In this document: piece by piece, positions 249-59,615 of the stretch | How positions within the stretch are numbered: the stretch's first letter is position 1 | Layout of the letters: each line of letters opens with the position of its first letter | Source of the DNA: an uncultured cyanobacterium | GTDB lineage: Bacteria; Cyanobacteriota; Cyanobacteriia; Cyanobacteriales; Cyanobacteriaceae | Assembly: GCA_963749915.1 (NCBI GenBank) | Contig: CAVVOP010000021.1 | Coordinates: 640,001 to 704,000, forward strand | Length of the DNA stretch: 64,000 nt | Direction of reading: 5' to 3' | Notes under the pieces: generated by a model | Seen by the model: the letters and a program-made list of their open reading frames with translations, nothing else | What the model was told of the DNA's origin: nothing | Databases searched by the model: none | Made by a program: the position numbers and the translations under genes

Positions 249-803
249 CTGACTTTTCACGGTATCTTTTCCCTGAGAAAGGGTTTGGGTGTTAGGGGTT
301 GGGTGATAGGGAAAATTCAGTTTTTGTTTTCGAGGGCACGAATCAATGCTGATAATAATCTTCCGAGGGATTCACATCTATTTAAAAGAGAATCAATGAC
401 TTTCCCCTCTCCTAACTTTACCCTTTTCGACAATAAAAGATGAGTTTCTAATTCTTTAAGAGAGCCTTGTGCTATGTATAAAAACTGTATATATTCTTTT
501 CGGGTTTTTCGACCATGCCCCTCAGCGACATTGGCGGGAATAGAGGCTGATGCTCGACGAATCTGAGAAATTAACCCGTAAAGTTCTTCTTTGGGGAAAT
601 TGCGAGTAACTAAGTAGCATTCTTCTGCTAAATCCATGCCTGTTTGCCAAACCTTTAAGTCTCTATAGGATTGTATTCCCATCAGTTTCTAAGTGTTTTT
701 TTTGACTGTTCAACTATTAAAGCTTATCCTCAATCCCTAATCCTAACACCCAACCCCTAACACCTAACACCTGTCAACCGAAAAAGATGCCGTGAAAAGT
801 TAG
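249..803 (-). mobile_element. 555-bp non-autonomous TIR element carrying a four-helix-bundle gene (copy 1)
   Basis: Ends CTGACTTTTCACGGTATCTTTT / AAAAGATGCCGTGAAAAGTTAG (22-bp TIR, 2 mismatches); inverted copy at 47475-48029; no target duplication at this copy. Confidence 0.9.
317..682 (-). CDS. Four helix bundle protein (TIGR02436 / 23S rRNA IVS protein family)
   Basis: YRDLKVWQ...FPKEELYGLISQIRRASASIPANVAEG...FLYIAQGSLKELETHL family signature. Confidence 0.93.
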   Translation of the reverse strand: MGIQSYRDLKVWQTGMDLAEECYLVTRNFPKEELYGLISQIRRASASIPANVAEGHGRKTRKEYIQFLYIAQGSLKELETHLLLSKRVKLGEGKVIDSLLNRCESLGRLLSALIRALENKN

Positions 804-1465
804 ACTGTTTGATGAGTGAACATGCCAGTTTGACCCGAGTAGGATAGTCTGATTGTCGTTGTGGTTTTGAGGGTCTGTCTTTCTTTTTTACCCCTTGTTT
901 AATTAGTTTCTTCTCATTCTTCGTCCATTCTCTAATTACTGGGTCTGGTCGATAAAAGCTCGCTCCGACAGGTATTGTTATTTCCGGTGTTACCAGTACC
1001 AAAAGCACAATATTCTGTGCTTGGTGAAATCCTCCTGTGCCTTTGAGTACTGTTTTATGGGTACCCCATATTCGTTTTGTGTTCTTGGAGCGACCTCTAT
1101 CGCTATCGTCAATAACAAGGACTCCCGAAGTAATATTGAATCGCTTCATGACGATAAGCACACTGGCACAAAGCAGGTAGTCCCAGCACTTGAGACCATG
1201 ATAAAACATTTTACAAAGCGCGCCGTCCTGGTAACGACCACCACTGGCACGTTCTAGTCTTGCCCAACAAAGTGATTGTGTCAGAAGCATTCCCATCAAG
1301 ACAAAGCACAAGAAACTTCCTTGAATTCTCGACAGTGGTTTATGACCTTCCTCTCGAAGTGTTTTGTTCAAGGCATCGACGTATTCGATAATATGTGGCA
1401 GAGGAGTGCCGGGAATCATAAATCTTATGGTAGAATTAAGAAGATTTAAAATGTAGAGGGTCGAG
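804..1465 (-). mobile_element. Truncated DDE transposase element (IS701/IS4-like); CDS starts at 1419
   Basis: VLVIDDSDRGRSK first-Asp motif; ORF is cut at 803 by the cassette; probable IS end CTCGACCCTCTACATT abuts the atpR start. Confidence 0.7.
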
Positions 1466-1791
1466 TGAATAATCTTTTCTTTTTACCGATTACGCTAGCG
1501 TTAGGAATTTTGCTGGGAAATATTTACTTTCAGGGATTGTGGATGACGGTGCAGCAATTGCCGAATGCTGAAAATCCGATTCTGTTGACCCTCGGTAGCT
1601 TTTTTGGACGTTTAGCGATCGCGATCGCAGGATTTGCACTGGTAGTAATGCTCACCAAAGAGAATGCCATCTGGCATCTGTTTATTTGTGTAGGCGCATT
1701 TATGTTGGTACGCAATCACCTCGTTCATAAATTCCAGCCCGAAATTTCATCCAAGATCCAATCGAATCTAGTAATGAACGATGAATATTAG
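1465..1791 (+). CDS. atpR: N-ATPase AtpR subunit
   Basis: Small membrane protein with G-x-x-YFQGLWMTV and SFFGR motifs, immediately before atpB. Confidence 0.8.
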   Translation: MNNLFFLPITLALGILLGNIYFQGLWMTVQQLPNAENPILLTLGSFFGRLAIAIAGFALVVMLTKENAIWHLFICVGAFMLVRNHLVHKFQPEISSKIQSNLVMNDEY

Positions 1792-2446
1792 CCCCGATCA
1801 GATTATCTATTGGCAATGGAAATTTGTGTCGATTAATGCCACTTTGGTCTTCACATGGTTGGTGATGCTGCTGTTGGGGATTGGTTCTTGGCTAGTGACG
1901 CGCCATCTCTCGATTGAGACAAAACTATCGAAGTGGCAAAACGTTCTGGAAATACTGGTGCTTAATTTACAGGAACAGATTAAAGAAACCAGTGGACAGA
2001 CTCCCAATCGCTATTTGCCCTTTATCGGAACCCTATTTATTTTTATTGCTACGGCAAATCTTTTGGCGATCGTTCCCCTTTTTGAACCGCCGACTGGATC
2101 ACTTTCTACTACGGCGGCTCTGGCTATATCGGTATTTTTTGCAGTTCCTTTTTTTGGTATCCGTCAGCAAGGAATCTGTAAATACCTGCATCATTATCTA
2201 GAACCTAGTCCAATTCTCTTACCATTGACTATCGTGAGCGAATTGTCTCGGACTCTAGCTTTGACCGTGCGTTTATTTGGCAATGTGATGAGTGGAGTAC
2301 TGATCGGGGCAATTTTACTTTCCCTCGCGCCATTATTTTTCCCGATTGTTATGCAGGCTTTGGGCTTGCTGACAGGGATCATCCAAGCCTATGTTTTCTC
2401 GATTTTAACAGTTGTTTATATTAGTGCCGCCAGTCATGAAAGCTGA
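1781..2446 (+). CDS. atpB: N-ATPase F0 subunit a
   Basis: SELSRTLALTVRLFGNVMSG and IQAYVFSILTVVY motifs. Confidence 0.95.
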   Translation: MNISPDQIIYWQWKFVSINATLVFTWLVMLLLGIGSWLVTRHLSIETKLSKWQNVLEILVLNLQEQIKETSGQTPNRYLPFIGTLFIFIATANLLAIVPLFEPPTGSLSTTAALAISVFFAVPFFGIRQQGICKYLHHYLEPSPILLPLTIVSELSRTLALTVRLFGNVMSGVLIGAILLSLAPLFFPIVMQALGLLTGIIQAYVFSILTVVYISAASHES

Positions 2447-2741
2447 ATCTCTATATTTATTAGTTACGATTATTGGCACTGTCTCAATCATCATGGCAGG
2501 GCTGACAATGGCAATTGGCACGATCGCCCCATCCCTCGGTGAAGGTAAATCCGTTGCCCAAGCCCTTAGCTCTCTCGCCCAACAACCCGATGCCTCTAGT
2601 ACGATTACCCGTACCCTGTTTGTGGGGTTAGCCTTTATCGAGTCTGTGGCAATTTATTGCTTTGTGATCTCGTTGATTTTGCTATTTGCAAATCCATTTT
2701 GGAACTACGCGATCGCTGCCCTTGAAAAGGTCGGAGGTTGA
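2436..2741 (+). CDS. atpE: N-ATPase F0 subunit c
   Basis: LGEG...AQQPDASSTITRTLFVGLAFIESVAIY; ATG at 2436 overlaps the atpB end. Confidence 0.95.
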   Translation: MKAESLYLLVTIIGTVSIIMAGLTMAIGTIAPSLGEGKSVAQALSSLAQQPDASSTITRTLFVGLAFIESVAIYCFVISLILLFANPFWNYAIAALEKVGG

Positions 2742-2745
2742 ACTA

Positions 2746-3537
2746 ATGGCAATTGACTGGTTCACCTTCTTCGCGCAAATCGTCAACTTTTTGGTGTTGA
2801 TTTTTGTGCTGCAACGTTGGCTCTATAAACCAATTACCAAGGCGATGCAACAGCGCGAAAATACGATTCGCGATAACCTCGATTCGGCATCAAAACAACA
2901 GCAAAAAGCTCAAGAGGAGGTAGAATGCTATCAAGCAAAGAAACAAGAGTTAGAAACTCATCGATTAGACTTACTTGCTCAAGCCAAACTAGAAACAGAG
3001 CAAACTCGTGAACATTTGCTGGAAGAGATGCATGAGTCTGTGGAAACAGAGCGATCGCAATGGCAATCAATGCTCCAACGTCAGAAAGAGTCTTTTTTGC
3101 GCGAAGTTAGCCATCGCACCATGCAGCAATTACAAACAACAGTGCGGCGAGTTTTGGCAGACCTAGCCGAATCAGAACTGGAAACGCAAATGGCGCGGGT
3201 GTTTCTACAAAAATTGCAAAATCTGAATGAGTCAGAGCGTACTGAATTAGTAAAGACTTTAACCGTTGCCACCACGGATGTTATTCCCTTGACCTTGGTA
3301 AGTACATTCGAGCTACCGACGGATATTTGTGGGGAGGTCTCGAAAATTTTGCAAACATACTTTGATGTTTCGAGCAAAGTGGAACTAAATTATGAAATTC
3401 AATCTAATCTCATTTGTGGAATTGAATTGCGCGGCACTGGCTATAAACTCGCTTGGAGCATGGATGCTTATTTAGATGCAATTGCCGAGAATTTAGTTAC
3501 AGTTTTTGCCGAAGAATCGGTTACTGCTATGAGTTAG
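2746..3537 (+). CDS. atpF: N-ATPase subunit b with delta-like C-terminal extension
   Basis: IDWFTFFAQIVNFLVLIFVLQRWLYKPI N-terminus and LICGIELR...WSMDAYL C-terminus; GGAGG RBS before ATG 2746. Confidence 0.92.
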   Translation: MAIDWFTFFAQIVNFLVLIFVLQRWLYKPITKAMQQRENTIRDNLDSASKQQQKAQEEVECYQAKKQELETHRLDLLAQAKLETEQTREHLLEEMHESVETERSQWQSMLQRQKESFLREVSHRTMQQLQTTVRRVLADLAESELETQMARVFLQKLQNLNESERTELVKTLTVATTDVIPLTLVSTFELPTDICGEVSKILQTYFDVSSKVELNYEIQSNLICGIELRGTGYKLAWSMDAYLDAIAENLVTVFAEESVTAMS

Positions 3538-3543
3538 GGCTAC

Positions 3544-3680
3544 TAAGTAGCTAGGCATAAGAAAATTCAAAATGCAGAGATTTAGATCCCCGACTTTTTC
3601 TGTAAATAAACAAACCCCATTGATAGCAAACAAAAAGTCGGGGATCTGTACTTTTACAAGTTGCTTTTACCGCCTACTTA
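3544..3680. repeat. Palindromic intergenic element (MITE/REP-like)
   Basis: Outer TAAGTAG...CTACTTA and an inner perfect 16-bp inverted repeat AGATCCCCGACTTTTT (3584-3599) / AAAAAGTCGGGGATCT (3632-3647). Confidence 0.7.
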
Positions 3681-3705
3681 ATAAACGAACTTTAGAAAAC
3701 TCCCT

Positions 3706-5250
3706 ATGTCTAAAATCGAAGCATCTTTACAGACTGTTTTGGAAGATACCTTTGCCACTTATGCAGAAGTTATCGATCGCCATCCATCACAACTGCGATC
3801 GCAAGAAATTGGTATCGTGGAATCAATTGGACAAGGCATTGCCAGAGTTGTCGGCTTACCCCATGTGCAAGCTGAAGAGATCGTGCGATTTACAGGCGGC
3901 AGTTTGGGCATGGTGTTTAACCTTGATCCCGAAGAAGTGGGTGTGATTTTACTGGATTCTAGCGATACGCTTCAGTCAGGAACGGAAGTAAGGCGCACGG
4001 GTAAAGTTCTGGATGTCCCTGTGGGCGAAACTTTGCTGGGTAGAGTCGTCGATCCCCTCGGTCGTCCCCTTGATGGCAAAGGTTTAATCCGCACTTCCCA
4101 ACGCCGTCCCGCCGAACGTGAGGCTCCTGCAATTATGGATCGCGCTTCCGTCAATGTGCCTTTGCAAACAGGAATTAAAGCGATCGATGCCTTGATCCCG
4201 ATTGGGCGCGGACAGAGAGAATTGATTTTAGGCGATCGCCAAACGGGTAAAAGTGGCATAGCGCTCGATACGATCATCAATCAAAAAGACAAAAATATTC
4301 TCTGCATTTACTGTGCGATCGGGCAGCGCAGTGCCGCCGTTGCCAAGCTAATCGCTGACCTCTACGAACATGGCGCAATGGCATACACCACCGTCGTCAT
4401 GGCAGCTGGAGAAGAACCCCCAGGATTGCAATTTGTCGCTCCCTACACGGCTACGGCGATGGCTGAATATTTTATGGAACAAGGGCGCGATGTACTGATT
4501 GTTTACGATGACCTCACTAACCATGCCCGCGCCTATCGCGAACTATCCCTGCTCATGCGCCGCCCCCCTGGGCGAGAGGCTTTCCCTGGGGATATTTTTT
4601 ACATTCATTCGCGCTTATTGGAACGCTCAACCCATCTCAATGCCGAGCATGGCGGCGGCTCTTTAACTTCATTGCCAATTCTGCAAACGGAAGCCCAAAA
4701 CATCGCGGCTTATATTCCCACAAATCTGATTTCGATTACCGATGGACAAATTTATCTGTCGCCAATTTTGTTTCAAAAAGGTGTATTACCCGCGATTGAA
4801 ATTGGTAAATCAGTTTCACGGGTTGGTGGCAAAACTCAACTTTCTGCCTATCGTGCTGTAGCTGGAGATTTGCGGCTATCCTATTCGCAATTTGAAGAAC
4901 TCGAATCTTTCTCGCGGTTTGGTACGCGCCTAGAAGAATCAACGCGGCTCACCTTGGAACGGGGTCGCAAAGTGCGCGAAATTCTCAAACAAAAGCAATA
5001 TGCACCCATGGCGGCGGCTGTCCAAATTGCTGTATTGCTCTCCGTTACGGCGGGTTTATTCGATCACCTACCGATCTCTAAAATTGCGATCGCCGAACAA
5101 GCAATTGCCGCCGAGATCCCTGCACAATTAGCCGAGCTATGTTTGCAAATTGAAAAGGGTGATGTCTTAGCGGATGAGGATCGCGAAGCTTTGCTTAAGG
5201 TTGCAGAAAGGGCGATCGCCAAGGTTATCAATAAGGCTTTGGAGGAATAA
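3706..5250 (+). CDS. atpA: N-ATPase F1 subunit alpha
   Basis: [43 protein letters not shown]. Confidence 0.97.
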
Positions 5251-5252
5251 TT

Positions 5253-6167
5253 ATGGCATCCCTTGAATTTCTACAGCGACAAATTCATACTGCCGAAGAA
5301 TTAAAGGCGATCGTCAAAATGATGAAAGTTCTCGCGGCGGTGAATATCCATCAATTTGAACATGCTGTTACTTCCCTGTCCGAATATACCCGAACAATTA
5401 GGATGGGTTTGCACGTTGTTCTCAAATCTACCCATACAAATAATAATCTTTCTAGTAATCTTCCTAAGATTGATTCAGACTCACTTTTAATAAGTTCTAT
5501 CGGTCGCTGTGGCGTGCTTATTTTTGGTTCTGAACAAGGGATGTGTGGTCAATTTAATGAACAGATTAGCCGCTATGCGATCGCCGAAATAGAACAATTA
5601 CAAATCGCCCCAGAACAGTTGGCAGTTTTTGCCATTGGCTCACGACTTATCCCACATTTAGAAAGTGAAGGTTATCAGATCGAGCAGAATTTTGCGATGC
5701 CCAGTTCTCTGTCGGGGATCACGTCGATGGTGCAAGAAATGTTACAGCATATTGCCGCATGGCGCGATCGCCAACAAATTACAAAAATCATCTTGTTCTA
5801 CAACAATTTACATTCCAATACATCTTACAAACCATCTCAGCATTTACTGTTGCCGCTCGATCGCACATGGTTGCAACAAATCAAAAGCCAAGAATGGCGA
5901 TCGCGCACCATCCCTATGTTTACGATGCCCAGTGATGTTTTAATCTCTTCTCTCCTACGCCAATATTTCTTTATCTCGCTCTATCGGGCCTTTGGTGAAT
6001 CCCTTGCCAGTGAAAATGCCAGCCGTCTAGTCTCGATGCAGGTTGCCGAAAAAAACATCGAAGAACGGCTCACTGAGTTTAAGGGTGAGTTTCGACAAAA
6101 GCGTCAATCGGCAATTACAGGTGAGTTATTAGAAATTATTTCAGGCTTTGAGTTAAATCAAGGCTAG
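5253..6167 (+). CDS. atpG: N-ATPase F1 subunit gamma
   Basis: GSEQGMCGQFN, ASENASRL, RQSAITGELLEI. Confidence 0.95.
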   Translation: MASLEFLQRQIHTAEELKAIVKMMKVLAAVNIHQFEHAVTSLSEYTRTIRMGLHVVLKSTHTNNNLSSNLPKIDSDSLLISSIGRCGVLIFGSEQGMCGQFNEQISRYAIAEIEQLQIAPEQLAVFAIGSRLIPHLESEGYQIEQNFAMPSSLSGITSMVQEMLQHIAAWRDRQQITKIILFYNNLHSNTSYKPSQHLLLPLDRTWLQQIKSQEWRSRTIPMFTMPSDVLISSLLRQYFFISLYRAFGESLASENASRLVSMQVAEKNIEERLTEFKGEFRQKRQSAITGELLEIISGFELNQG

Positions 6168-6223
6168 TTTTTTAAATATTTTGAAAGCCAAAAGTAAGCA
6201 ATTATCTAATTAAATATAATCAA

Positions 6224-8068
<1,845 letters not shown>

Positions 8069-8072
<4 letters not shown>

Positions 8073-8410
8073 ATAACCCCGATCCTGAATCTCGTGAATT
8101 GCGATCGCCGACCTCAGACTTTACCAAAGCGATCGGTGATAAAGAACAGCGCAAAATTCATGCGCGTGAAACAAAGCCCTATGGTGGAGTTTGGTTTGGT
8201 TTGGGCTTTGCAGGTTTGGTCGGTTGGTCAACTGTTGCGCCAACCATGCTAGGAATGGCAATAGGTGTCTGGATCGATCGCCAATTTCCCAGTCAGTTCT
8301 CCTGGACATTATCATTGATGTTGGCAGGGTTAACCCTTGGTTGCTTAGTAGCATGGGAATGGGTTTCACAGGAAGCAGGAACGCATAGCAAAATCACAAC
8401 CACCCAATAA
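8069..8410 (+). CDS. atpQ: N-ATPase AtpQ (AtpZ/AtpI-like)
   Basis: WFGLGFAGLVGWSTVAPTMLG...WID...SWTLSL...GC-x-x-AWEW. Confidence 0.88.
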
Positions 8411-8838: not shown

Positions 8839-10938
8839 CCCACATTCCGCACGTCAAACTGTATAAATTCAGATTACGAGGTTAGAGATTGAAAAGTGAT
8901 TGACTACGACAAGAAATACTCGGTGATTAGTTCTCTAGCTTATAAAGAGAACTCAGATAAATTAGTAGAAAAATGAGCAACGTTTAAGGGATAATTAAAT
9001 TCAGTTTTTAATTTAATTTTGGAAATGATGTTTTCAGAAGATATACAAGTTCAAACCATTAATCATTTAGGATTAATTGCTGGAGTTATAGATGAAATTG
9101 GCATTGAAGAAATTATTAATGATGCCCTCGGTATTGACGAGAGGGAAATCGTGACAGCAGGTCAAATAGTCAAAGCAATTATTCTGAACGGATTAGGATT
9201 TATTTCCCGTCCTCTTTATCTATTTCCACAGTTTTTTCAAGATAAAGCAACCGAACATTTAATCGGAAAAGGAATACTACCTGAGCATTTGAACGATGAT
9301 AGAATTGGAAGAATAATGGATAAACTTTATGAAAAAGGATTATCTCCATTATTTTTAATTATTGCTTTAGCCATAGTAAAAAAATATAATATCAATATAG
9401 ATTTTTCCCATTTAGATTCAACTTCTTTTGCAGTAGAGGGGAAATATAATCAAGAAAAAATCACCAAAAACTTGGTGAAAGAAAATGCAGAATTAGAGTT
9501 AATTAATCAAATTCCAATTAAGATAATTAAAGGTTATTCCCGTGACCATCGACCAGATTTAAAACAATTTATTTTGGATTTAATTGTGAGTGGTGATGGT
9601 GATATTCCTTTATTTTTAAGAGTAGCAGATGGCAATGAAAATGATAAAGCAGTTTTCGGCAAAATAGCGAAAGAATACAAATCAATGATAGATTTTGAGA
9701 CGATGATAGTGGGTGATAGTGCCTTATATACAGAAAATAACCTGAAATTAATGAGTGGAATAGAATGGTTATCGAGAGTGCCACTATCAATAAAAGAGGC
9801 AAAAAATTTAGTTTCAGAACTATCAGAATCTGATTTGACTCCAAGTAGTTTAGAAGGATATTCATGGTGTGAAGTAAGGAATAATTATGCAGAAATTGAG
9901 CAAAGATGGTTAATAGTAGAAAGTGAAAAAAGAAAAGTATCAGAGCTAGAAAAACTAAGGGAAAAAATAGAGAAAGAAAAAGAAAAAACCGAAGAAATAT
10001 TAAAGAAATTGATGAAAGAAGAATTTAGCTCATCAGAGGGAGCTTATGAAACAGTTGTGAGACTAAATAAGACTTTAAAATATCATCACATAACCGAGCT
10101 AAAAATGACAGAAAGTGAGTTAAATAATCACAAGAAAAAATCGAAAAAGAAAGAAGAAAAATCGGGAAAAACTTATCAAGTTACGGCTATTTTGAAATCA
10201 GATTTAACGAAAATAAACGAATCAAAAAAAAGAGCAGGAAGATTTGTGTTAGCGACAAATAGATTGGATAAAAGTAAATTTAATTCTGATGAAATTTTAA
10301 TTAAGTATAAAGAGCAACAGGCCGCAGAAAGAGGTTTTAGTTTTTTGAAAGATCCATTATTTTTTGCCGATAGTGTGTTTTTAAAAACCCCAAAAAGAAT
10401 CGAAACAATGGCAATGTTGATGGGGTTATGTCTGTTGGTATATTCTTTGGGGCAAAGAGAAGTGCGTCGCTTATTAAAGGAGAGAAAAACGGGGATAAAA
10501 AATCAGCTGGGAAAACTAACGGAACGTCCAACGTTAAGATGGATATTTCAATGTTTTCAGGGGATTCATTTAGTAATAAATCAGAGGAATAAGAACAGAT
10601 AGTAAATCTAACAAATGAACGAAAACTAATTTTAAGTTTTTTCCCGATTTCTTGTCATAATTATTATATTTTATCTGGATAACTTATGGGATTTAAGAGT
10701 CTAAACATTCTCAATTATAATATCATAAATAAAGAATAGAAAACTGATAGATTTGCTCTGTTTATTTATTCTCATTAAAGGTGAAGTTATTGACAATGAG
10801 ATTTTAATTTGAGCAAAGTTCGCGAGCACAAAACGCGAATAAAGAAGATATTGAGTATTATTACTTATATTTTGTCCAAAATAAGTTGCTTGGTTTTAAT
10901 ACTTTTATCATCTTACAAAGTGACGTGCGGAATGTGGG
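8839..10938 (+). mobile_element. IS1634-family insertion sequence (2100 bp)
   Basis: Perfect 18-bp TIRs CCCACATTCCGCACGTCA / TGACGTGCGGAATGTGGG; no target duplication visible. Confidence 0.92.
9019..10602 (+). CDS. IS1634 transposase, C-terminus frameshifted
   Basis: HLDSTSF, GYSRDHRPDLKQ, ERGFSFLKDP; two extra G near 10584-10593 relative to the copy at ~41845 remove the last ~30 aa. Confidence 0.9.
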   Translation: MEMMFSEDIQVQTINHLGLIAGVIDEIGIEEIINDALGIDEREIVTAGQIVKAIILNGLGFISRPLYLFPQFFQDKATEHLIGKGILPEHLNDDRIGRIMDKLYEKGLSPLFLIIALAIVKKYNINIDFSHLDSTSFAVEGKYNQEKITKNLVKENAELELINQIPIKIIKGYSRDHRPDLKQFILDLIVSGDGDIPLFLRVADGNENDKAVFGKIAKEYKSMIDFETMIVGDSALYTENNLKLMSGIEWLSRVPLSIKEAKNLVSELSESDLTPSSLEGYSWCEVRNNYAEIEQRWLIVESEKRKVSELEKLREKIEKEKEKTEEILKKLMKEEFSSSEGAYETVVRLNKTLKYHHITELKMTESELNNHKKKSKKKEEKSGKTYQVTAILKSDLTKINESKKRAGRFVLATNRLDKSKFNSDEILIKYKEQQAAERGFSFLKDPLFFADSVFLKTPKRIETMAMLMGLCLLVYSLGQREVRRLLKERKTGIKNQLGKLTERPTLRWIFQCFQGIHLVINQRNKNR

Positions 10939-40248: not shown

Positions 40249-41527
40249 GGGCACCTCGAAAAATTCAAACTACACTCATCAGGTCAGTCTCTGAGGCAAT
40301 TTTTTTGAAAAGCTGAATGTAACATAAATTCATAGCACGAGTCTCTGGGAATTAATTATCGGACTTGCCAACACTTGAAAGCTTTTAACTGAGCTGAATT
40401 CATCAATTTACCTTTCTGTTAACCTCCCTAAGCTGCACGAGTTTCTAGATACACGTATCGTTTCAAATTGTACGCCAGATTTTTCAAGCCTAGATTGGCT
40501 TTGGCTCGCTCAATCCCAATTGAGCGTATCAACTTACCTCCCATCTCATTGACGATAGCTCCAAACACATGCTCTACCTTGGCCCGAGTCTTGGACTTCT
40601 GGCGATTGTTCTCTTTCTGCTCTTCTGTTAACGGGTGATTGCGATACCCTCTCTCATTGATGTGAGAACACCAGTTCAATAACACTAAGAACCATTCAAT
40701 CAAGGCACTGCGATAGGCACTATCGGCCCAAACCCCATCTCCTTCATTATCTTCATCTAAGATCTCGGCTAAGGCTTGGGAATCATGTACGGCTGCATCG
40801 GTGACACTATAGTTACGCACAAAACCGTGTTCAACGTCCACATTGATGTGGTTCTTGTAGCCGAAATGACTCACGTTGTTTTTCTTGGTCCAGGTCGCAT
40901 CAATGTCCCGCTGGGACAGACGATGGGGGTTTTCCTGCCAATTTTGGGGAATTTCCCCTTGGTCTAATTGCTCCTTTTCCTCCTTGCTAATATGCTGCTT
41001 GGGAACCGGAACGATCGTCGCATCAATAATTTGCCCCCCCTGAGCTTGGTAGCCCTGAGCTATTAGGTAGCTCTCAAACTGCTCAAAGAGTGCTTCAATC
41101 AGACCAGCATCCGTTAACTGTTGACGGAACAACCAGACCGTTGTCCCATCTGGGACGGCATCAGCTAAGCTCAAACCGAGAAACTCCATGAAGGAAAGAC
41201 GATCATTGACCTGATACTCTAGTTGGTCATCGCTGAGGTTGTGCAGTTTTTGCAGAATTAGCAACTTGAACATCAACACCACATCGAAGGGCTTACGACC
41301 TGCGTTGCTTTTCCTCGGCTTCTGACGCACCCGCTCTAAAATGGGTCGGAACTCTTCCCAGGGAACAGTTTCGTTGAGTCGCCTCAAGAAGTTGTTCTTC
41401 TGGTTCAGTTTCTGGTATCGTTGAGTTAGTTCTGGTTGTCCGGCTACGTTCATGGTGCTTCACCTCCGTGACATCTAATCTCTAGGATTGCACTATTGAG
41501 GAACTAAATCAATTTTTCGAGGTGCCC
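40249..41527 (-). mobile_element. IS5-family insertion sequence
   Basis: 17-bp TIR GGGCACCTCGAAAAATT / AATTTTTCGAGGTGCCC. Confidence 0.9.
40428..41453 (-). CDS. IS5-family transposase, apparently intact
   Basis: IIDATIV, HFGYKNH, WADSAY, RAKVEHVFG. Confidence 0.93.
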   Translation of the reverse strand: MNVAGQPELTQRYQKLNQKNNFLRRLNETVPWEEFRPILERVRQKPRKSNAGRKPFDVVLMFKLLILQKLHNLSDDQLEYQVNDRLSFMEFLGLSLADAVPDGTTVWLFRQQLTDAGLIEALFEQFESYLIAQGYQAQGGQIIDATIVPVPKQHISKEEKEQLDQGEIPQNWQENPHRLSQRDIDATWTKKNNVSHFGYKNHINVDVEHGFVRNYSVTDAAVHDSQALAEILDEDNEGDGVWADSAYRSALIEWFLVLLNWCSHINERGYRNHPLTEEQKENNRQKSKTRAKVEHVFGAIVNEMGGKLIRSIGIERAKANLGLKNLAYNLKRYVYLETRAA

Positions 41528-46683: not shown

Positions 46684-47026
46684 GTTGTTGAAGAGAAAGC
46701 ATAACCCACAGTATTTTGGTGTTTGGGAAACCAAAGGCTGACGCTGGGTTAAATGGCGGTAACTGATAGCCTAAAAAAGGGGAATCCCGTCTAGCAGACT
46801 GACCACGAGTAGGAAGACGAACTCTTATCTGAACCATGGTCACCACGAAATAGCTAAATAGGCCAGGGCAAACGCATCTAAATTCTGTAAGCCTTGCCCA
46901 GCAAGGATTTGAAATTTTAATCACAAAACAAAATAATGGCTGAAACCTTTGTCCACTAAGCCTTCTAAAAATAAGATGCGTTTGCCCTGCTAAATAGGCT
47001 GACAAGCTATACCAAAAGGTAAAAGT
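46684..47026 (+). ncRNA. 5' remnant (domain I) of a group II intron
   Basis: GTTAAATGGCGGTAACTGATAGCC and AAATAGGCTGACAAGC...CCAAAAGGTAA blocks recalled from cyanobacterial chloroplast-like group IIB introns; no RT or domain V present. Confidence 0.55.
46864..46989. mobile_element. 126-bp MITE with 10-bp target duplication
   Basis: TIR CAGGGCAAACGCATCT / AGATGCGTTTGCCCTG; CTAAATAGGC at 46854-46863 and 46990-46999. Confidence 0.9.
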
Positions 47027-47270: not shown

Positions 47271-47474
47271 CTAGAACGAAAGACCCAGAAGGAAAAGGAT
47301 GGTTTAAGGAAAGATTTTTACAGAGAGAAAGACTCTCAAAGGGGGAATAGTAAAGTGAGTTGTTCTCAAAATGAAAGACAAAGTTTTCATATTAGATTAT
47401 TGAACTTTAGTCCTGAATACATAACCCTTTCAGAAAACTTTTTTTCTACCAAATCTGCCAATGGAAAGGCAAAT

Positions 47475-48029
47475 CTAACTTTTCACGGCATCTTTTTCGG
47501 TTGACAGGTGTTAGGTGTTAGGGGTTGGGTGTTAGGATTAGGGATTGAGGATAAGCTTTAATAGTTGAACAGTCAAAAAAAACACTTAGAAACTGATGGG
47601 AATACAATCCTATAGAGACTTAAAGGTTTGGCAAACAGGCATGGATTTAGCAGAAGAATGCTACTTAGTTACTCGCAATTTCCCCAAAGAAGAACTTTAC
47701 GGGTTAATTTCTCAGATTCGTCGAGCATCAGCCTCTATTCCCGCCAATGTCGCTGAGGGGCATGGTCGAAAAACCCGAAAAGAATATATACAGTTTTTAT
47801 ACATAGCACAAGGCTCTCTTAAAGAATTAGAAACTCATCTTTTATTGTCGAAAAGGGTAAAGTTAGGAGAGGGGAAAGTCATTGATTCTCTTTTAAATAG
47901 ATGTGAATCCCTCGGAAGATTATTATCAGCATTGATTCGTGCCCTCGAAAACAAAAACTGAATTTTCCCTATCACCCAACCCCTAACACCCAAACCCTTT
48001 CTCAGGGAAAAGATACCGTGAAAAGTCAG
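47475..48029 (+). mobile_element. 555-bp non-autonomous TIR element carrying a four-helix-bundle gene (copy 2)
   Basis: Same TIRs as copy 1; target duplication AAAGGCAAAT at 47465-47474 and 48030-48039; empty sites at ~48670, ~49326 and ~49982. Confidence 0.95.
47596..47961 (+). CDS. Four helix bundle protein
   Basis: Protein identical to 317-682. Confidence 0.93.
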   Translation: MGIQSYRDLKVWQTGMDLAEECYLVTRNFPKEELYGLISQIRRASASIPANVAEGHGRKTRKEYIQFLYIAQGSLKELETHLLLSKRVKLGEGKVIDSLLNRCESLGRLLSALIRALENKN

Positions 48030-48071
48030 AAAGGCAAATTAGTCCTGGAGTTAGAATTTTAATTTTATCGG

Positions 48072-48153: not shown

Positions 48154-48543
48154 ATGAAAAACTTATTTATCGCTTCGGGTTTAACTTTAGTTACCGCTTT
48201 GACTATGTCAACTTCTAGCGTATTGGGACAAACACAAATTGATACTGGTACAAAGGCACCAGCACCTGTAACTACTGGAGTAGGGGGTGATGATGGCACA
48301 GTGATCGAATCCGACATGGTCACCATTGTCACTGGAGATGGAAACCGCTCAACTCAAAGAGTTAATATCACTAGCTCCAGACAACGCTATTTTGACGCTC
48401 CGGGCAACGATGGAACCGTAATCCGTAGCTACGTTGATTGTGATGTTATGGGTAACGATAATGTCTGTGAACAATATAAAGTAATCAAGACTACCACGGT
48501 AAGAGGACAAAGACCCGTCAGAACTGACCGCAATAACCGTTAA
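48154..48543 (+). CDS. Secreted protein with curlin-like motifs (paralog 1)
   Basis: Sec signal peptide (VLG-Q); VTGDGNRSTQ and VMGNDNVCEQ; GAGGAG RBS. Confidence 0.8.
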   Translation: MKNLFIASGLTLVTALTMSTSSVLGQTQIDTGTKAPAPVTTGVGGDDGTVIESDMVTIVTGDGNRSTQRVNITSSRQRYFDAPGNDGTVIRSYVDCDVMGNDNVCEQYKVIKTTTVRGQRPVRTDRNNR

Positions 48544-48711
48544 TTCCATAAATAAATGTCGGTAGAGGGAAAACTTTTTTTGTCAAGGGCATAAATGGCC
48601 TCTTTGACTCTAATTCCGAAAGACATCGACCTTTGGGAAAACTTTTCTCTCTGCTGAATCTGCCAATGGAAAGGCAAATTAGTCCTGAAATTAAAATTTT
48701 AATTTTCTGGG

Positions 48712-48740
48712 GGAACTTTTTGCCTTATGGGTAAGTCTGA
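48712..48740 (+). promoter_or_regulatory. ECF sigma-type promoter
   Basis: GGAACTT-N16-GTCTGA. Confidence 0.65.
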
Positions 48741-48794
48741 ACAACAAATCAATTTGATTCTCCATGTAAAAAAATAGGAAACAAAGAAAAAACA

Positions 48795-49199
48795 ATGAAA
48801 AACTTATTTATCGCTTCTGGTTTAGCCCTAGTTACTGCTCTTAGTCTGTCAACCCCTAGCGTACTAGGACAAACGGGAGGAAGTGATCCAGTGATGAAAC
48901 CCGAGGTCATGAACCCCGACCCCGACATGGGAAGAACAGGAGGAGATGATGGCACAGTGATCGAATCCGACATGGTCACTATTATCACTGGAGATGGAAA
49001 CCGCTCAACTCAAAGAGTTAATATCACTAGCTCCAGACAACGCTATTTTGACGCTCCGGGCAACGATGGAACCGTAATCCGTAGCTACGTTGATTGTGAT
49101 GTTATGGGTAACGATAATGTCTGTGAACAATATAAAGTAATCAAGACTACCACGGTAAGAGGACAAAGACCCGTCAGAACTGACCGCAATAACCGTTAA
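48795..49199 (+). CDS. Secreted protein with curlin-like motifs (paralog 2)
   Basis: Same core as paralog 1 with a different mature N-terminus. Confidence 0.8.
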   Translation: MKNLFIASGLALVTALSLSTPSVLGQTGGSDPVMKPEVMNPDPDMGRTGGDDGTVIESDMVTIITGDGNRSTQRVNITSSRQRYFDAPGNDGTVIRSYVDCDVMGNDNVCEQYKVIKTTTVRGQRPVRTDRNNR

Positions 49200-49367
49200 T
49201 TCCATAAATAAATGTCGGTAGAGGGAAAACTTTTTTTGTCAAGGGCATAAATGGCCTCTTTGACTCTAATTCCGAAAGACATCGACCTTTGGGAAAACTT
49301 TTCTCTCTACTGAATCTGCCAATGGAAAGGCAAATTAGTCCTGAAATTAAAATTTTAATTTTCTGGG

Positions 49368-49396
49368 GGAACTTTTTGCCTTATGGGTAAGTCTGA
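49368..49396 (+). promoter_or_regulatory. ECF sigma-type promoter
   Basis: GGAACTT-N16-GTCTGA. Confidence 0.65.
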
Positions 49397-49450
49397 ACAA
49401 CAAATCAATTTGATTCTCCATGTAAAAAAATAGGAAACAAAGAAAAAACA

Positions 49451-49855
49451 ATGAAAAACTTATTTATCGCTTCTGGTTTAGCCCTAGTTACCGCTCTTAG
49501 TCTGTCAACCCCTAGCGTACTAGGACAAACGGGAGGAAGTGATCCAGTGATGAAACCCGAGGTCATGAACCCCGACCCCGACATGGGAAGAACAGGAGGA
49601 GATGATGGCACAGTGATCGAATCCGACATGGTCACTATTATCACTGGAGATGGAAACCGCTCAACTCAAAGAGTTAATATCACTAGCTCCAGACAACGCT
49701 ATTTTGACGCTCCGGGCAACGATGGAACCGTAATCCGTAGCTACGTTGATTGTGATGTTATGGGTAACGATAATGTCTGTGAACAATATAAAGTAATCAA
49801 GACTACCACGGTAAGAGGACAAAGACCCGTCAGAACTGACCGCAATAACCGTTAA
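49451..49855 (+). CDS. Secreted protein with curlin-like motifs (paralog 3)
   Basis: Protein identical to paralog 2. Confidence 0.8.
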   Translation: MKNLFIASGLALVTALSLSTPSVLGQTGGSDPVMKPEVMNPDPDMGRTGGDDGTVIESDMVTIITGDGNRSTQRVNITSSRQRYFDAPGNDGTVIRSYVDCDVMGNDNVCEQYKVIKTTTVRGQRPVRTDRNNR

Positions 49856-50023
49856 TTCCATAAATAAATGTCGGTAGAGGGAAAACTTTTTTTGTCAAGG
49901 GCATAAATGGCCTCTTTGACTCTAATTCCGAAAGACATCGACCTTTGGGAAAACTTTTCTCTCTACTGAATCTGCCAATGGAAAGGCAAATTAGTCCTGA
50001 AATTAAAATTTTAATTTTCCAGA

Positions 50024-59599: not shown

Positions 59600-59615
59600 A
59601 GATGCGTTTGCCCTG
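59600..59615. mobile_element. Lone TIR of the CAGGGCAAACGCATCT family
   Basis: Identical to the end of the 46864-46989 MITE. Confidence 0.6.

What the first reader, a model, noticed from the sequence alone, without database searches (positions are those of the whole stretch)
47465..48039. Transposase-free mobile cassette that carries only a four-helix-bundle gene
Seen: a 555-bp element with 22-bp TIRs occurs twice (249-803 and 47475-48029, inverted) and encodes an identical 121-aa protein. Copy 2 has a perfect 10-bp target duplication (AAAGGCAAAT), and the uninterrupted target TGGAAAGGCAAATTAGTCC survives three times in the adjacent tandem array, giving a filled-versus-empty site comparison. 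Known: this family (TIGR02436, 23S rRNA IVS protein, related to DGR Avd) is scattered in genomes with unclear function; duplications of about 10 bp are typical of IS4-family enzymes. Inference: a MITE-like vehicle mobilised in trans spreads this gene, which may itself act in mobility or in RNA binding.
Basis: partly seen in the sequence, partly recalled or inferred. Interest (0 to 1): 0.85.

Follow-up and report, generated by a model that had tools for sequence, protein, structure and literature searches.

The report
Transposase-free cassette spreading an IVS-type gene
A 555-base piece of DNA with no jumping enzyme of its own lies in 12 nearly identical copies in this cyanobacterial genome and carries only the unexplained four-helix-bundle gene known from ribosomal-RNA "intervening sequences"; it is likely moved by an IS4-family transposase encoded elsewhere, which would give a workable test of how that gene spreads.

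Summary
Confirmed and extended. The 555-bp element has 12 full copies in the genome (10 identical, 11 with an intact gene). Eight carry perfect 9-10-bp target duplications, and the empty site survives three times beside copy 2. Its ends match IS4-family (Tn5/IS50-like) elements: one in this genome (19 of 22 bases) and a sister element elsewhere (21 of 22). It fits the definition of a mobile insertion cassette (MIC). The cargo is an older unit: the gene between mirror-image 7-base repeat arms, as in 82 of 88 homologous loci, only 2 of which have these IS ends. A diverged cassette with the same ends keeps the gene under purifying selection (dN/dS 0.22). Other lineages of the gene ride IS701- and ISL3-type ends, and in one relative 11 of 12 copies are broken yet multiplied. 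The protein is therefore probably a passenger, not needed in cis; its function is untested. I found no paper describing this (9 searches). The scan reported the same kind of cassette before in other genomes (e1-2394295, e1-4888477, e1-4865265). New variant of a known kind.

The parts
47475..48029 (+). Cassette copy 2, 555 bp, no transposase gene
   Evidence: one of 12 full copies in the genome
47465..47474 (+). Target-site duplication, left copy (10 bp)
48030..48039 (+). Target-site duplication, right copy (10 bp)
47475..47496 (+). Left terminal inverted repeat (22 bp), IS4/IS50-like
   Evidence: 19 of 22 to the left end of the IS at G000 C20, 21 of 22 to the left end of L188
48008..48029 (-). 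Right terminal inverted repeat (22 bp)
   Evidence: 20 of 22 to the left repeat
47506..47547 (+). 5' arm: purine-rich heptamer tandem array
   Evidence: period 7, 4.4 copies; pairs with the 3' arm
47596..47961 (+). Four-helix-bundle gene, 121 aa (PF05635, TIGR02436, NF008911)
47967..47998 (+). 3' arm: complementary heptamer array
   Evidence: period 14, 2.3 copies
249..803 (-). Cassette copy 1, identical, no target duplication; it truncates the 220-aa frame at 757-1419, whose flank recurs on contig C26
317..682 (-). Four-helix-bundle gene of copy 1
48667..48685 (+). Empty target site, tandem unit 2
49323..49341 (+). Empty target site, tandem unit 3
49979..49997 (+). Empty target site, tandem unit 4

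Best explanation
This is a 555-bp transposase-free cassette, present in 12 copies, that is likely cut out and re-inserted by an IS4-family (Tn5/IS50-like) transposase made elsewhere, and its four-helix-bundle gene is likely a hitch-hiking passenger that the jump does not need. SHOWN: copy number, 9-10-bp target duplications, filled and empty sites, ends shared with IS4 elements, and heptamer arms around the gene in most homologues with or without IS ends. INFERRED: (1) the arms-plus-gene unit, built like an ORF-bearing 23S rRNA intervening sequence, existed first and was captured once between two IS4 ends (its nearest relatives lack those ends); (2) the transposase binds the 22-bp ends and makes a 9-10-base staggered cut, and copy number rises when excision follows replication (established for IS4-family cut-and-paste elements; the copy-gain route is recalled); (3) copies without a duplication come from deletions next to an end (one is mapped: 227 bp); (4) when transcribed, the arms pair into a long stem that loops out the gene, and the basic protein, a likely pentamer like Xcc0516 and Avd, binds that RNA and serves the unit's own persistence; (5) cassettes later lose the gene and remain as MITEs with heptamer arrays. 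Step 4 is the weakest and has no direct evidence.
For: 12 full copies, 10 identical; duplications of 10 bp in 6 and 9 bp in 2. One IS with these ends in the genome, C20:161811-163312: NF033590 IS4 transposase 335 bits (cut-off 160), Tn5-type DNA-binding domain (PF14706, NF049926), DDE and YREK motifs. Perfect 10-11-bp duplications in 4 of 8 such elements examined. Gene-less 125-189-bp elements with the same ends, one with a 10-bp duplication. Filled site in L048 is empty in G000. Inverted arms in 82 of 88 homologous loci against 1 of 88 in the reversed control; true IS50-like ends in 2 of 88. Fold z = -3.86, 0 of 100 shuffles as stable. Three gene lineages sit in three kinds of end. In G015, 1 of 12 copies of the IS701-type cassette is intact and 10 of 12 share one nested insertion. 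Model pLDDT 93, TM 0.86 to Xcc0516 and 0.78 to Avd; pI 9.4.
Against: The only candidate partner in the assembly is single-copy, has no target duplication, has a right end only 15-17 of 22 like the cassette's, and has a frame break; the best-matching ends (L188) belong to a sister clade not found in this assembly. dN/dS of 0.22 (bootstrap 0.11-0.38) between two cassettes shows the gene stays under selection while riding, which a purely inert passenger would not. The gene-bearing cassette (12 copies) outnumbers the gene-less elements with the same ends (4). No expression evidence: no sense-strand promoter-like site in the leader, 5 sites against 3.3 expected in the region, and only one 124-base diverged RNA contig over the gene in 3 metatranscriptomes. 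The broken G015 copies could have been served in trans by the one intact copy.
Confidence: 0.65

Rival explanations
1. The protein is an accessory mobility factor. Like Avd with its reverse transcriptase, it helps the cassette spread, by aiding the transposase in trans or by a separate RNA-based route that uses the arm stem.
For: dN/dS 0.22 between two cassettes with the same ends; 12 gene-bearing copies against 4 gene-less elements; same fold as Avd; a mobility role for the IVS ORF is an old hypothesis (PMC4990558).
Against: The gene rides IS4-, IS701- and ISL3-type ends, and 86 of 88 homologous loci lack the IS50-like ends. Broken copies multiplied in G015, and gene-less elements in G013 are numerous. 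No copy lies within 15 kb of any of the 5 reverse-transcriptase matches. PF22296 is below its cut-off.
Confidence: 0.18
2. The gene benefits the host (stress, defence or regulation), and the cassette is an ordinary MIC that spreads a useful passenger, as MIC231 does.
For: Purifying selection; 11 of 12 copies intact; a large family, 3611 proteins at E <= 1e-20 among 3940 candidates.
Against: No full-length copy in 40 relatives, including 6 of the same genus. Parallel cassettes decay quickly. One copy splits a phospholipase-D-like anti-phage gene. The Coxiella homologue had no growth effect in E. coli and is decaying (PMC4990558).
Confidence: 0.14
3. The copies are assembly artefacts or segmental duplications, not transposition.
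For: 4 of 12 copies have no target duplication; no read bridged the copy-2 junction in the runs laid.
Against: 8 different perfect duplications; filled and empty alleles; element contigs in independent runs end at the element's termini with flanks unlike the 12 in G000; a diverged cassette with its own 9-bp duplication (L074).
Confidence: 0.02

Closest known systems
Mobile insertion cassettes (MIC231 of the IS231 subgroup, IS4 family; PMC6199540, passages read)
   Same: Two inverted repeats, no transposase, a passenger gene, about 10-bp duplications, a related IS in the same genome.
   Different: Tn5/IS50-like ends starting CT rather than IS231 ends; a cyanobacterium; 555 bp, below the 700 bp to 3 kb quoted; the cargo is a repeat-armed unit of unknown function; very recent burst.
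ORF-bearing 23S rRNA intervening sequences (S23p of Coxiella and Leptospira; PMC4990558, passages read)
   Same: Same protein family (PF05635), ORF in the loop of a long stem, heptamer repeats before the start codon.
   Different: Not in an rRNA gene; bounded by IS ends and target duplications; 12 dispersed copies; RNase III processing untested.
DGR accessory protein Avd (PMC6182149, PMC10053308, passages read)
   Same: Four-helix fold (TM 0.78 to 4DWL), basic protein, likely pentamer.
   Different: 12% identity, bAvd model below cut-off, no neighbouring reverse transcriptase.
Cyanobacterial MITEs (for example Anabaena sp. 90, PMC3542288, passages read) and heptamer STRR arrays (name recalled)
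   Same: Short, multi-copy, inverted-repeat-bounded, moved in trans; gene-less relatives carry heptamer arrays.
   Different: This element keeps an intact gene under selection; the passages read do not link such MITEs or arrays to this gene.
IS4-family, Tn5/IS50-like elements with a split N-terminus (NCBIfam NF049926 IS4_FS_Nterm, NF033590)
   Same: The candidate partner scores above both cut-offs and shares the ends.
   Different: The cassette keeps only the ends; both resemble the IS left end.

Membership tests
Mobile insertion cassette (MIC) | Two terminal inverted repeats | tested here: met
   20 of 22 bases
Mobile insertion cassette (MIC) | No transposase gene | tested here: met
   Only long frame is the 121-aa gene
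Mobile insertion cassette (MIC) | One or more passenger coding sequences | tested here: met
   Intact in 11 of 12 copies
Mobile insertion cassette (MIC) | Ends shared with an autonomous IS | tested here: met
   19 of 22 to the C20 IS left end, 21 of 22 to L188
Mobile insertion cassette (MIC) | Moved in trans by that transposase | not testable with these tools
   Inferred from shared ends and duplication length
Mobile insertion cassette (MIC) | Size about 700 bp to 3 kb (descriptive range in PMC6199540) | tested here: not met
   555 bp; I treat the range as descriptive, not defining
IS4 family (vehicle) | Target duplication of about 10 bp | tested here: met
   10 bp in 6 and 9 bp in 2 of 12 copies; family table
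IS4 family (vehicle) | DDE transposase with YREK motif in the partner | tested here: met
   Motifs; NF033590 above cut-off
IS4 family (vehicle) | No frameshift in the transposase gene (PMC2266710) | tested here: not met
   The C20 element and 7 of 7 close relatives share one break; sister elements L185 and L188 read through; NCBIfam has a model for the split N-terminus
IS50 subgroup | End consensus and 8-9-bp duplication (Table 1 of PMC2266710) | tested here: inconclusive
   By my reading 5 of 7 consensus positions fit, and duplications are mostly 10 bp; the Tn5-type N-terminal domain is present
MITE | No protein-coding gene | tested here: not met
   Intact gene with dN/dS 0.22
23S rRNA intervening sequence | Lies inside a 23S rRNA gene | tested here: not met
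   No Rfam match in the window; the copies lie in protein-coding or intergenic DNA
23S rRNA intervening sequence | Long stem enclosing an S23p-family ORF | tested here: met
23S rRNA intervening sequence | Excised by RNase III without ligation | not testable with these tools
   No raw RNA reads were available
DGR Avd | Next to a DGR reverse transcriptase and template repeat | tested here: not met
   Nearest reverse-transcriptase match on the same contig is 15 kb from a copy; template repeats were not searched
DGR Avd | Sequence family bAvd (PF22296) | tested here: not met
   22.3 bits, cut-off 40
DGR Avd | Four-helix fold; pentamer | tested here: inconclusive
   Monomer fold matches; the oligomer was not tested

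The most novel reading that the evidence does not exclude
The four-helix-bundle gene with its mirrored heptamer arms is a selfish element class of its own. Its Avd-like protein acts on the stem formed by its own arms, it is repeatedly captured by the ends of unrelated IS families (three in this one genome), and its gene-less remains are a source of the heptamer arrays of cyanobacterial genomes and of ORF-bearing rRNA intervening sequences. This 12-copy, still intact cassette would be a living model of that cycle.
Probability: 0.25. Interest if true: 0.85.

Novelty: new variant of a known kind. Interest (0 to 1): 0.55.

Why it matters
The origin of ORF-bearing rRNA intervening sequences and the function of their protein are open; transposition remnants and a mobility role for the ORF were both proposed long ago (PMC4990558). 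Here the same gene-in-a-stem unit is caught in a recent transposition burst, with a known kind of enzyme, defined ends and an intact gene under selection. That allows a direct with-gene against without-gene mobility assay and an RNA-binding test on a defined stem. The cassette is also a mutagen in this host: it splits an anti-phage gene. The vehicle itself is a known kind.

Tried and rejected
Horizontal transfer to a distant cyanobacterium: L048/G505 holds an identical cassette although its phosphoketolase DNA is only 73% like G000's. Rejected as evidence, because the whole 17.6-kb contig is 97-99.9% identical to G000 DNA, so mis-binning of a near-identical strain is as likely; used only as a filled-versus-empty comparison. 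dN/dS among the 12 copies: no signal. Protein-transposase complex prediction with L188's transposase: no answer, score 0.00, controls not folded; no evidence either way. Expression: 3 metatranscriptomes and one unlabelled run, contigs only, cannot show transcription; the one raw-read DNA run laid 0 reads. Exact 26-base end pattern in metagenome contigs: 0 matches. Promoter and terminator scan: not above chance. Target preference: no consensus by eye among 8 duplications; flanks in multi-copy DNA for 7 of 12 copies against 37 of 300 random 200-bp windows, not tested statistically and not claimed. The IS50-end pattern also flagged L004 and L007, which were chance matches; L008 was mislabelled ISL3 in the tree by a chance right end and has an IS701-type left end. 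Reading the C20 transposase as a dead pseudogene: disfavoured by the conserved break. Beggiatoa heptamer papers: no mention of this protein in the passages searched; PMC3697557 is not held. A passenger gene inside sister IS4 elements (L195, L196) is not a four-helix-bundle gene.

Full report
Observation. The two window segments (249-803 minus, 47475-48029 plus) are identical over 555 bp and encode one 121-aa protein. The ends are 22-bp inverted repeats that differ at 2 positions. Copy 2 is flanked by a perfect 10-bp duplication, and the uninterrupted 19-base target occurs three times in the genome, all in the adjacent 656-bp tandem array. The protein is PF05635 / TIGR02436 / NF008911 above cut-off. 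Its model (pLDDT 93, four helices) matches Xcc0516 (TM 0.86) and BT_0352, and more weakly Avd (TM 0.78, 12% identity). Homologues point to a cyanobacterial host.

Copies. The 4.69-Mb assembly holds 12 full copies: 10 identical, one with a single substitution, one with 6 differences including a frameshift. Six have 10-bp and two have 9-bp perfect duplications, all different; four have none. One of the four, on C19, equals the C25 allele less 227 bp next to the left end, which I read as an adjacent deletion. One copy splits a phospholipase-D-like anti-phage gene: the two halves match NF042964 positions 1-181 and 180-630. Two more split frames of about 490 codons. A contig from another assembly (L048) has an identical copy with its own 10-bp duplication at a site that is empty in G000. 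In run X1 the element's contigs have depth 59-67 against about 3 for the flanks, a figure the tool warns is no copy number; loose ends in X1, X9 and X13 show junctions unlike the 12 in G000, judged by eye. None of 40 relatives searched has a full copy; one genome of another family has a deleted remnant with the same end.

The mover. A search for the end motif paired only one long element in G000: C20:161811-163312, 1502 bp, plus four gene-less elements of 125-189 bp. Its protein scores 335 bits on NF033590 (IS4 transposase, cut-off 160), has a Tn5-type DNA-binding N-terminus (PF14706; NF049926 100 bits, cut-off 27) and has DDE and YREK motifs. Its left end matches the cassette at 19 of 22 bases, its right end at 15-17; it has no target duplication. 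The gene has a frame break near codon 55, at the same short T run in 8 of 8 elements examined, this one included, and in 4 more in G505. A sister clade about 53% identical reads through in one frame (L185, L188). I infer programmed recoding; the NCBIfam model name IS4_FS_Nterm suggests curators know the split, and frameshifted transposases are common (PMC3711429, passages). Four of those 8 elements have perfect 10-11-bp duplications. L188's left end fits the cassette best (21 of 22), but no L188-type gene was found in this assembly. Which enzyme moved the cassette is therefore inferred, not shown.

The cargo is older than the vehicle. Inside the IS ends the gene sits between a purine-rich heptamer array and its complement. 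The RNA is predicted to close into one long stem (z = -3.86; 0 of 100 shuffles as stable). I examined 92 loci: the 80 best metagenome hits, 5 genome hits, 6, and this element. Four were dropped for short flanks. Of the other 88, 82 have significant inverted arms, against 1 of 88 in the reversed control. The set holds several near-duplicates and is biased to close hits. True IS50-like ends occur in 2 of 88: this element and L074, a 537-bp cassette with an intact gene (85% identical protein) and a 9-bp duplication. These two are sisters in a tree of 29 chosen proteins (support 95/80), and their nearest relatives L059 and L075 have arms but no such ends. dN/dS between the two cassettes is 0.22 (dS 0.38; bootstrap 0.11-0.38; 115 codons). 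Pairs with non-cassette genes give 0.07-0.13 where dS could be computed (5 of 9; near saturation). The gene is thus under purifying selection while riding, perhaps somewhat relaxed.

Other vehicles. A second gene lineage lies between ends that also bound IS701-like genes (L027, G000 C27, L010; NF049921 hit on L204, below cut-off because partial). A third lies between ends like those of an ISL3 element on G000 C22, with 8-bp duplications (L005, L006, L036). G000 itself has all three: 12 IS4-type copies, one intact IS701-type cassette, and an ISL3-type remnant on C8. The tree was rooted at its midpoint and I ran no clade test, so 'three captures' is an inference. In G015 only 1 of 12 IS701-type copies has a whole gene, and 10 of 12 share one nested insertion, so broken copies multiplied. 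In G013 and G006 many elements of about 200 bp keep the same ends and arms without the gene (3 aligned).

Mechanism. Best reading (0.65): an IS4-type MIC moved in trans, with a passenger that the jump does not need in cis. The protein is basic (pI 9.4). Its solved relative Xcc0516 is a pentamer (PMC4990558), and Avd is a positively charged pentamer that works with RNA and a reverse transcriptase (PMC6182149). I therefore infer that it binds the stem formed by its own arms; nothing here shows that. Against a wholly passive reading stand the selection on the gene and the 12-to-4 excess over gene-less elements. An accessory role in mobility (0.18) and a host benefit (0.14) remain. I have no expression evidence.

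Known kinds and novelty. The element meets the MIC definition in PMC6199540 (passages) except for size, and differs from MIC231 in end type, host and cargo. It is built like an ORF-bearing 23S rRNA IVS, heptamer repeats included (PMC4990558, passages), but is not in an rRNA gene. It is not a DGR part. Nine literature searches listed no paper that places this gene in an IS-derived cassette; the library lacks most subscription journals. I read passages only of PMC10053308, bioRxiv 2024.02.27.582315, PMC4679880, PMC2266710, PMC3711429, PMC4990558, PMC6199540, PMC3542288, PMC4853749 and PMC6182149, and no supplements; MITE tables in supplements could hold such elements unannotated. The original MIC231, IVS and STRR papers are cited second-hand or recalled. 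Earlier notes of this scan describe the same kind of cassette in other genomes; I reached the MIC reading before seeing them, took the 'IVS-type cassette' framing and the ISL3 lead from them, and did not check their loci.

Verdict. A real and recently active element. The vehicle is a known kind; the cargo, its repeated capture and the selection on it are not described in what I could search. New variant of a known kind; interest 0.55.

Noticed in passing
G000:C20:161811-163312 (L038, L044) and L045, L046, L052, L054-L057, L182, L184, L186, L189: Conserved frame break at a run of 4-5 T near codon 55 of a Tn5-like IS4 transposase, just after the DNA-binding domain; a sister clade reads through. 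Likely programmed recoding; the second frame alone would resemble the Tn5 inhibitor protein (recalled).
   Followed up: partly
window 46864-46989: 126-bp element with perfect 16-bp inverted ends and a 10-bp target duplication (46854-46863, 46990-46999); a third end at 59600-59615. The ends resemble ISAs1-family ends (recalled). High contig depth over part of it in RNA run X17.
   Followed up: partly
window 48154-49855: Tandem array (656-bp unit) of three near-identical 129-134-aa genes with hydrophobic N-termini and no Pfam match; related sequence is present in RNA contigs of three metatranscriptomes. Copy 2 sits 115 bp upstream of the first gene.
   Followed up: partly
G000:C10:10414-12908 (L065): Phospholipase-D-like/helicase anti-phage gene (NF042964) split by a cassette copy.
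   Followed up: yes
L195:322-2415 and L196:1-2092: IS4 elements of the sister clade (Halotia and Nostoc plasmids) carry a 133-aa passenger gene of no known family inside their ends.
   Followed up: partly
G000:C27:123849-124373; C8:831008; C10:28451-28804; C8:328.4-329.1 kb and C8:767476: Other four-helix-bundle genes in the same genome: one in IS701-type ends, a remnant behind an ISL3-type end, one with arms only between two genes, and an arm of another subfamily next to an IS50-like end.
   Followed up: partly
window 1465-8410: Alternate (N-type) F1F0 ATPase operon.
   Followed up: no
window 9019-10602 and 40428-41453: IS1634-family and IS5-family transposase genes.
   Followed up: no
window 757-1419: 220-aa frame cut by copy 1; the same DNA lies on C26, where another cassette copy interrupts it at a different place; no Pfam or NCBIfam match.
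   Followed up: partly
L194 (G505:C132): A 17.6-kb contig 97-99.9% identical to G000 DNA in a genome otherwise distant from G000: likely mis-binned, or a large recent transfer.
   Followed up: partly
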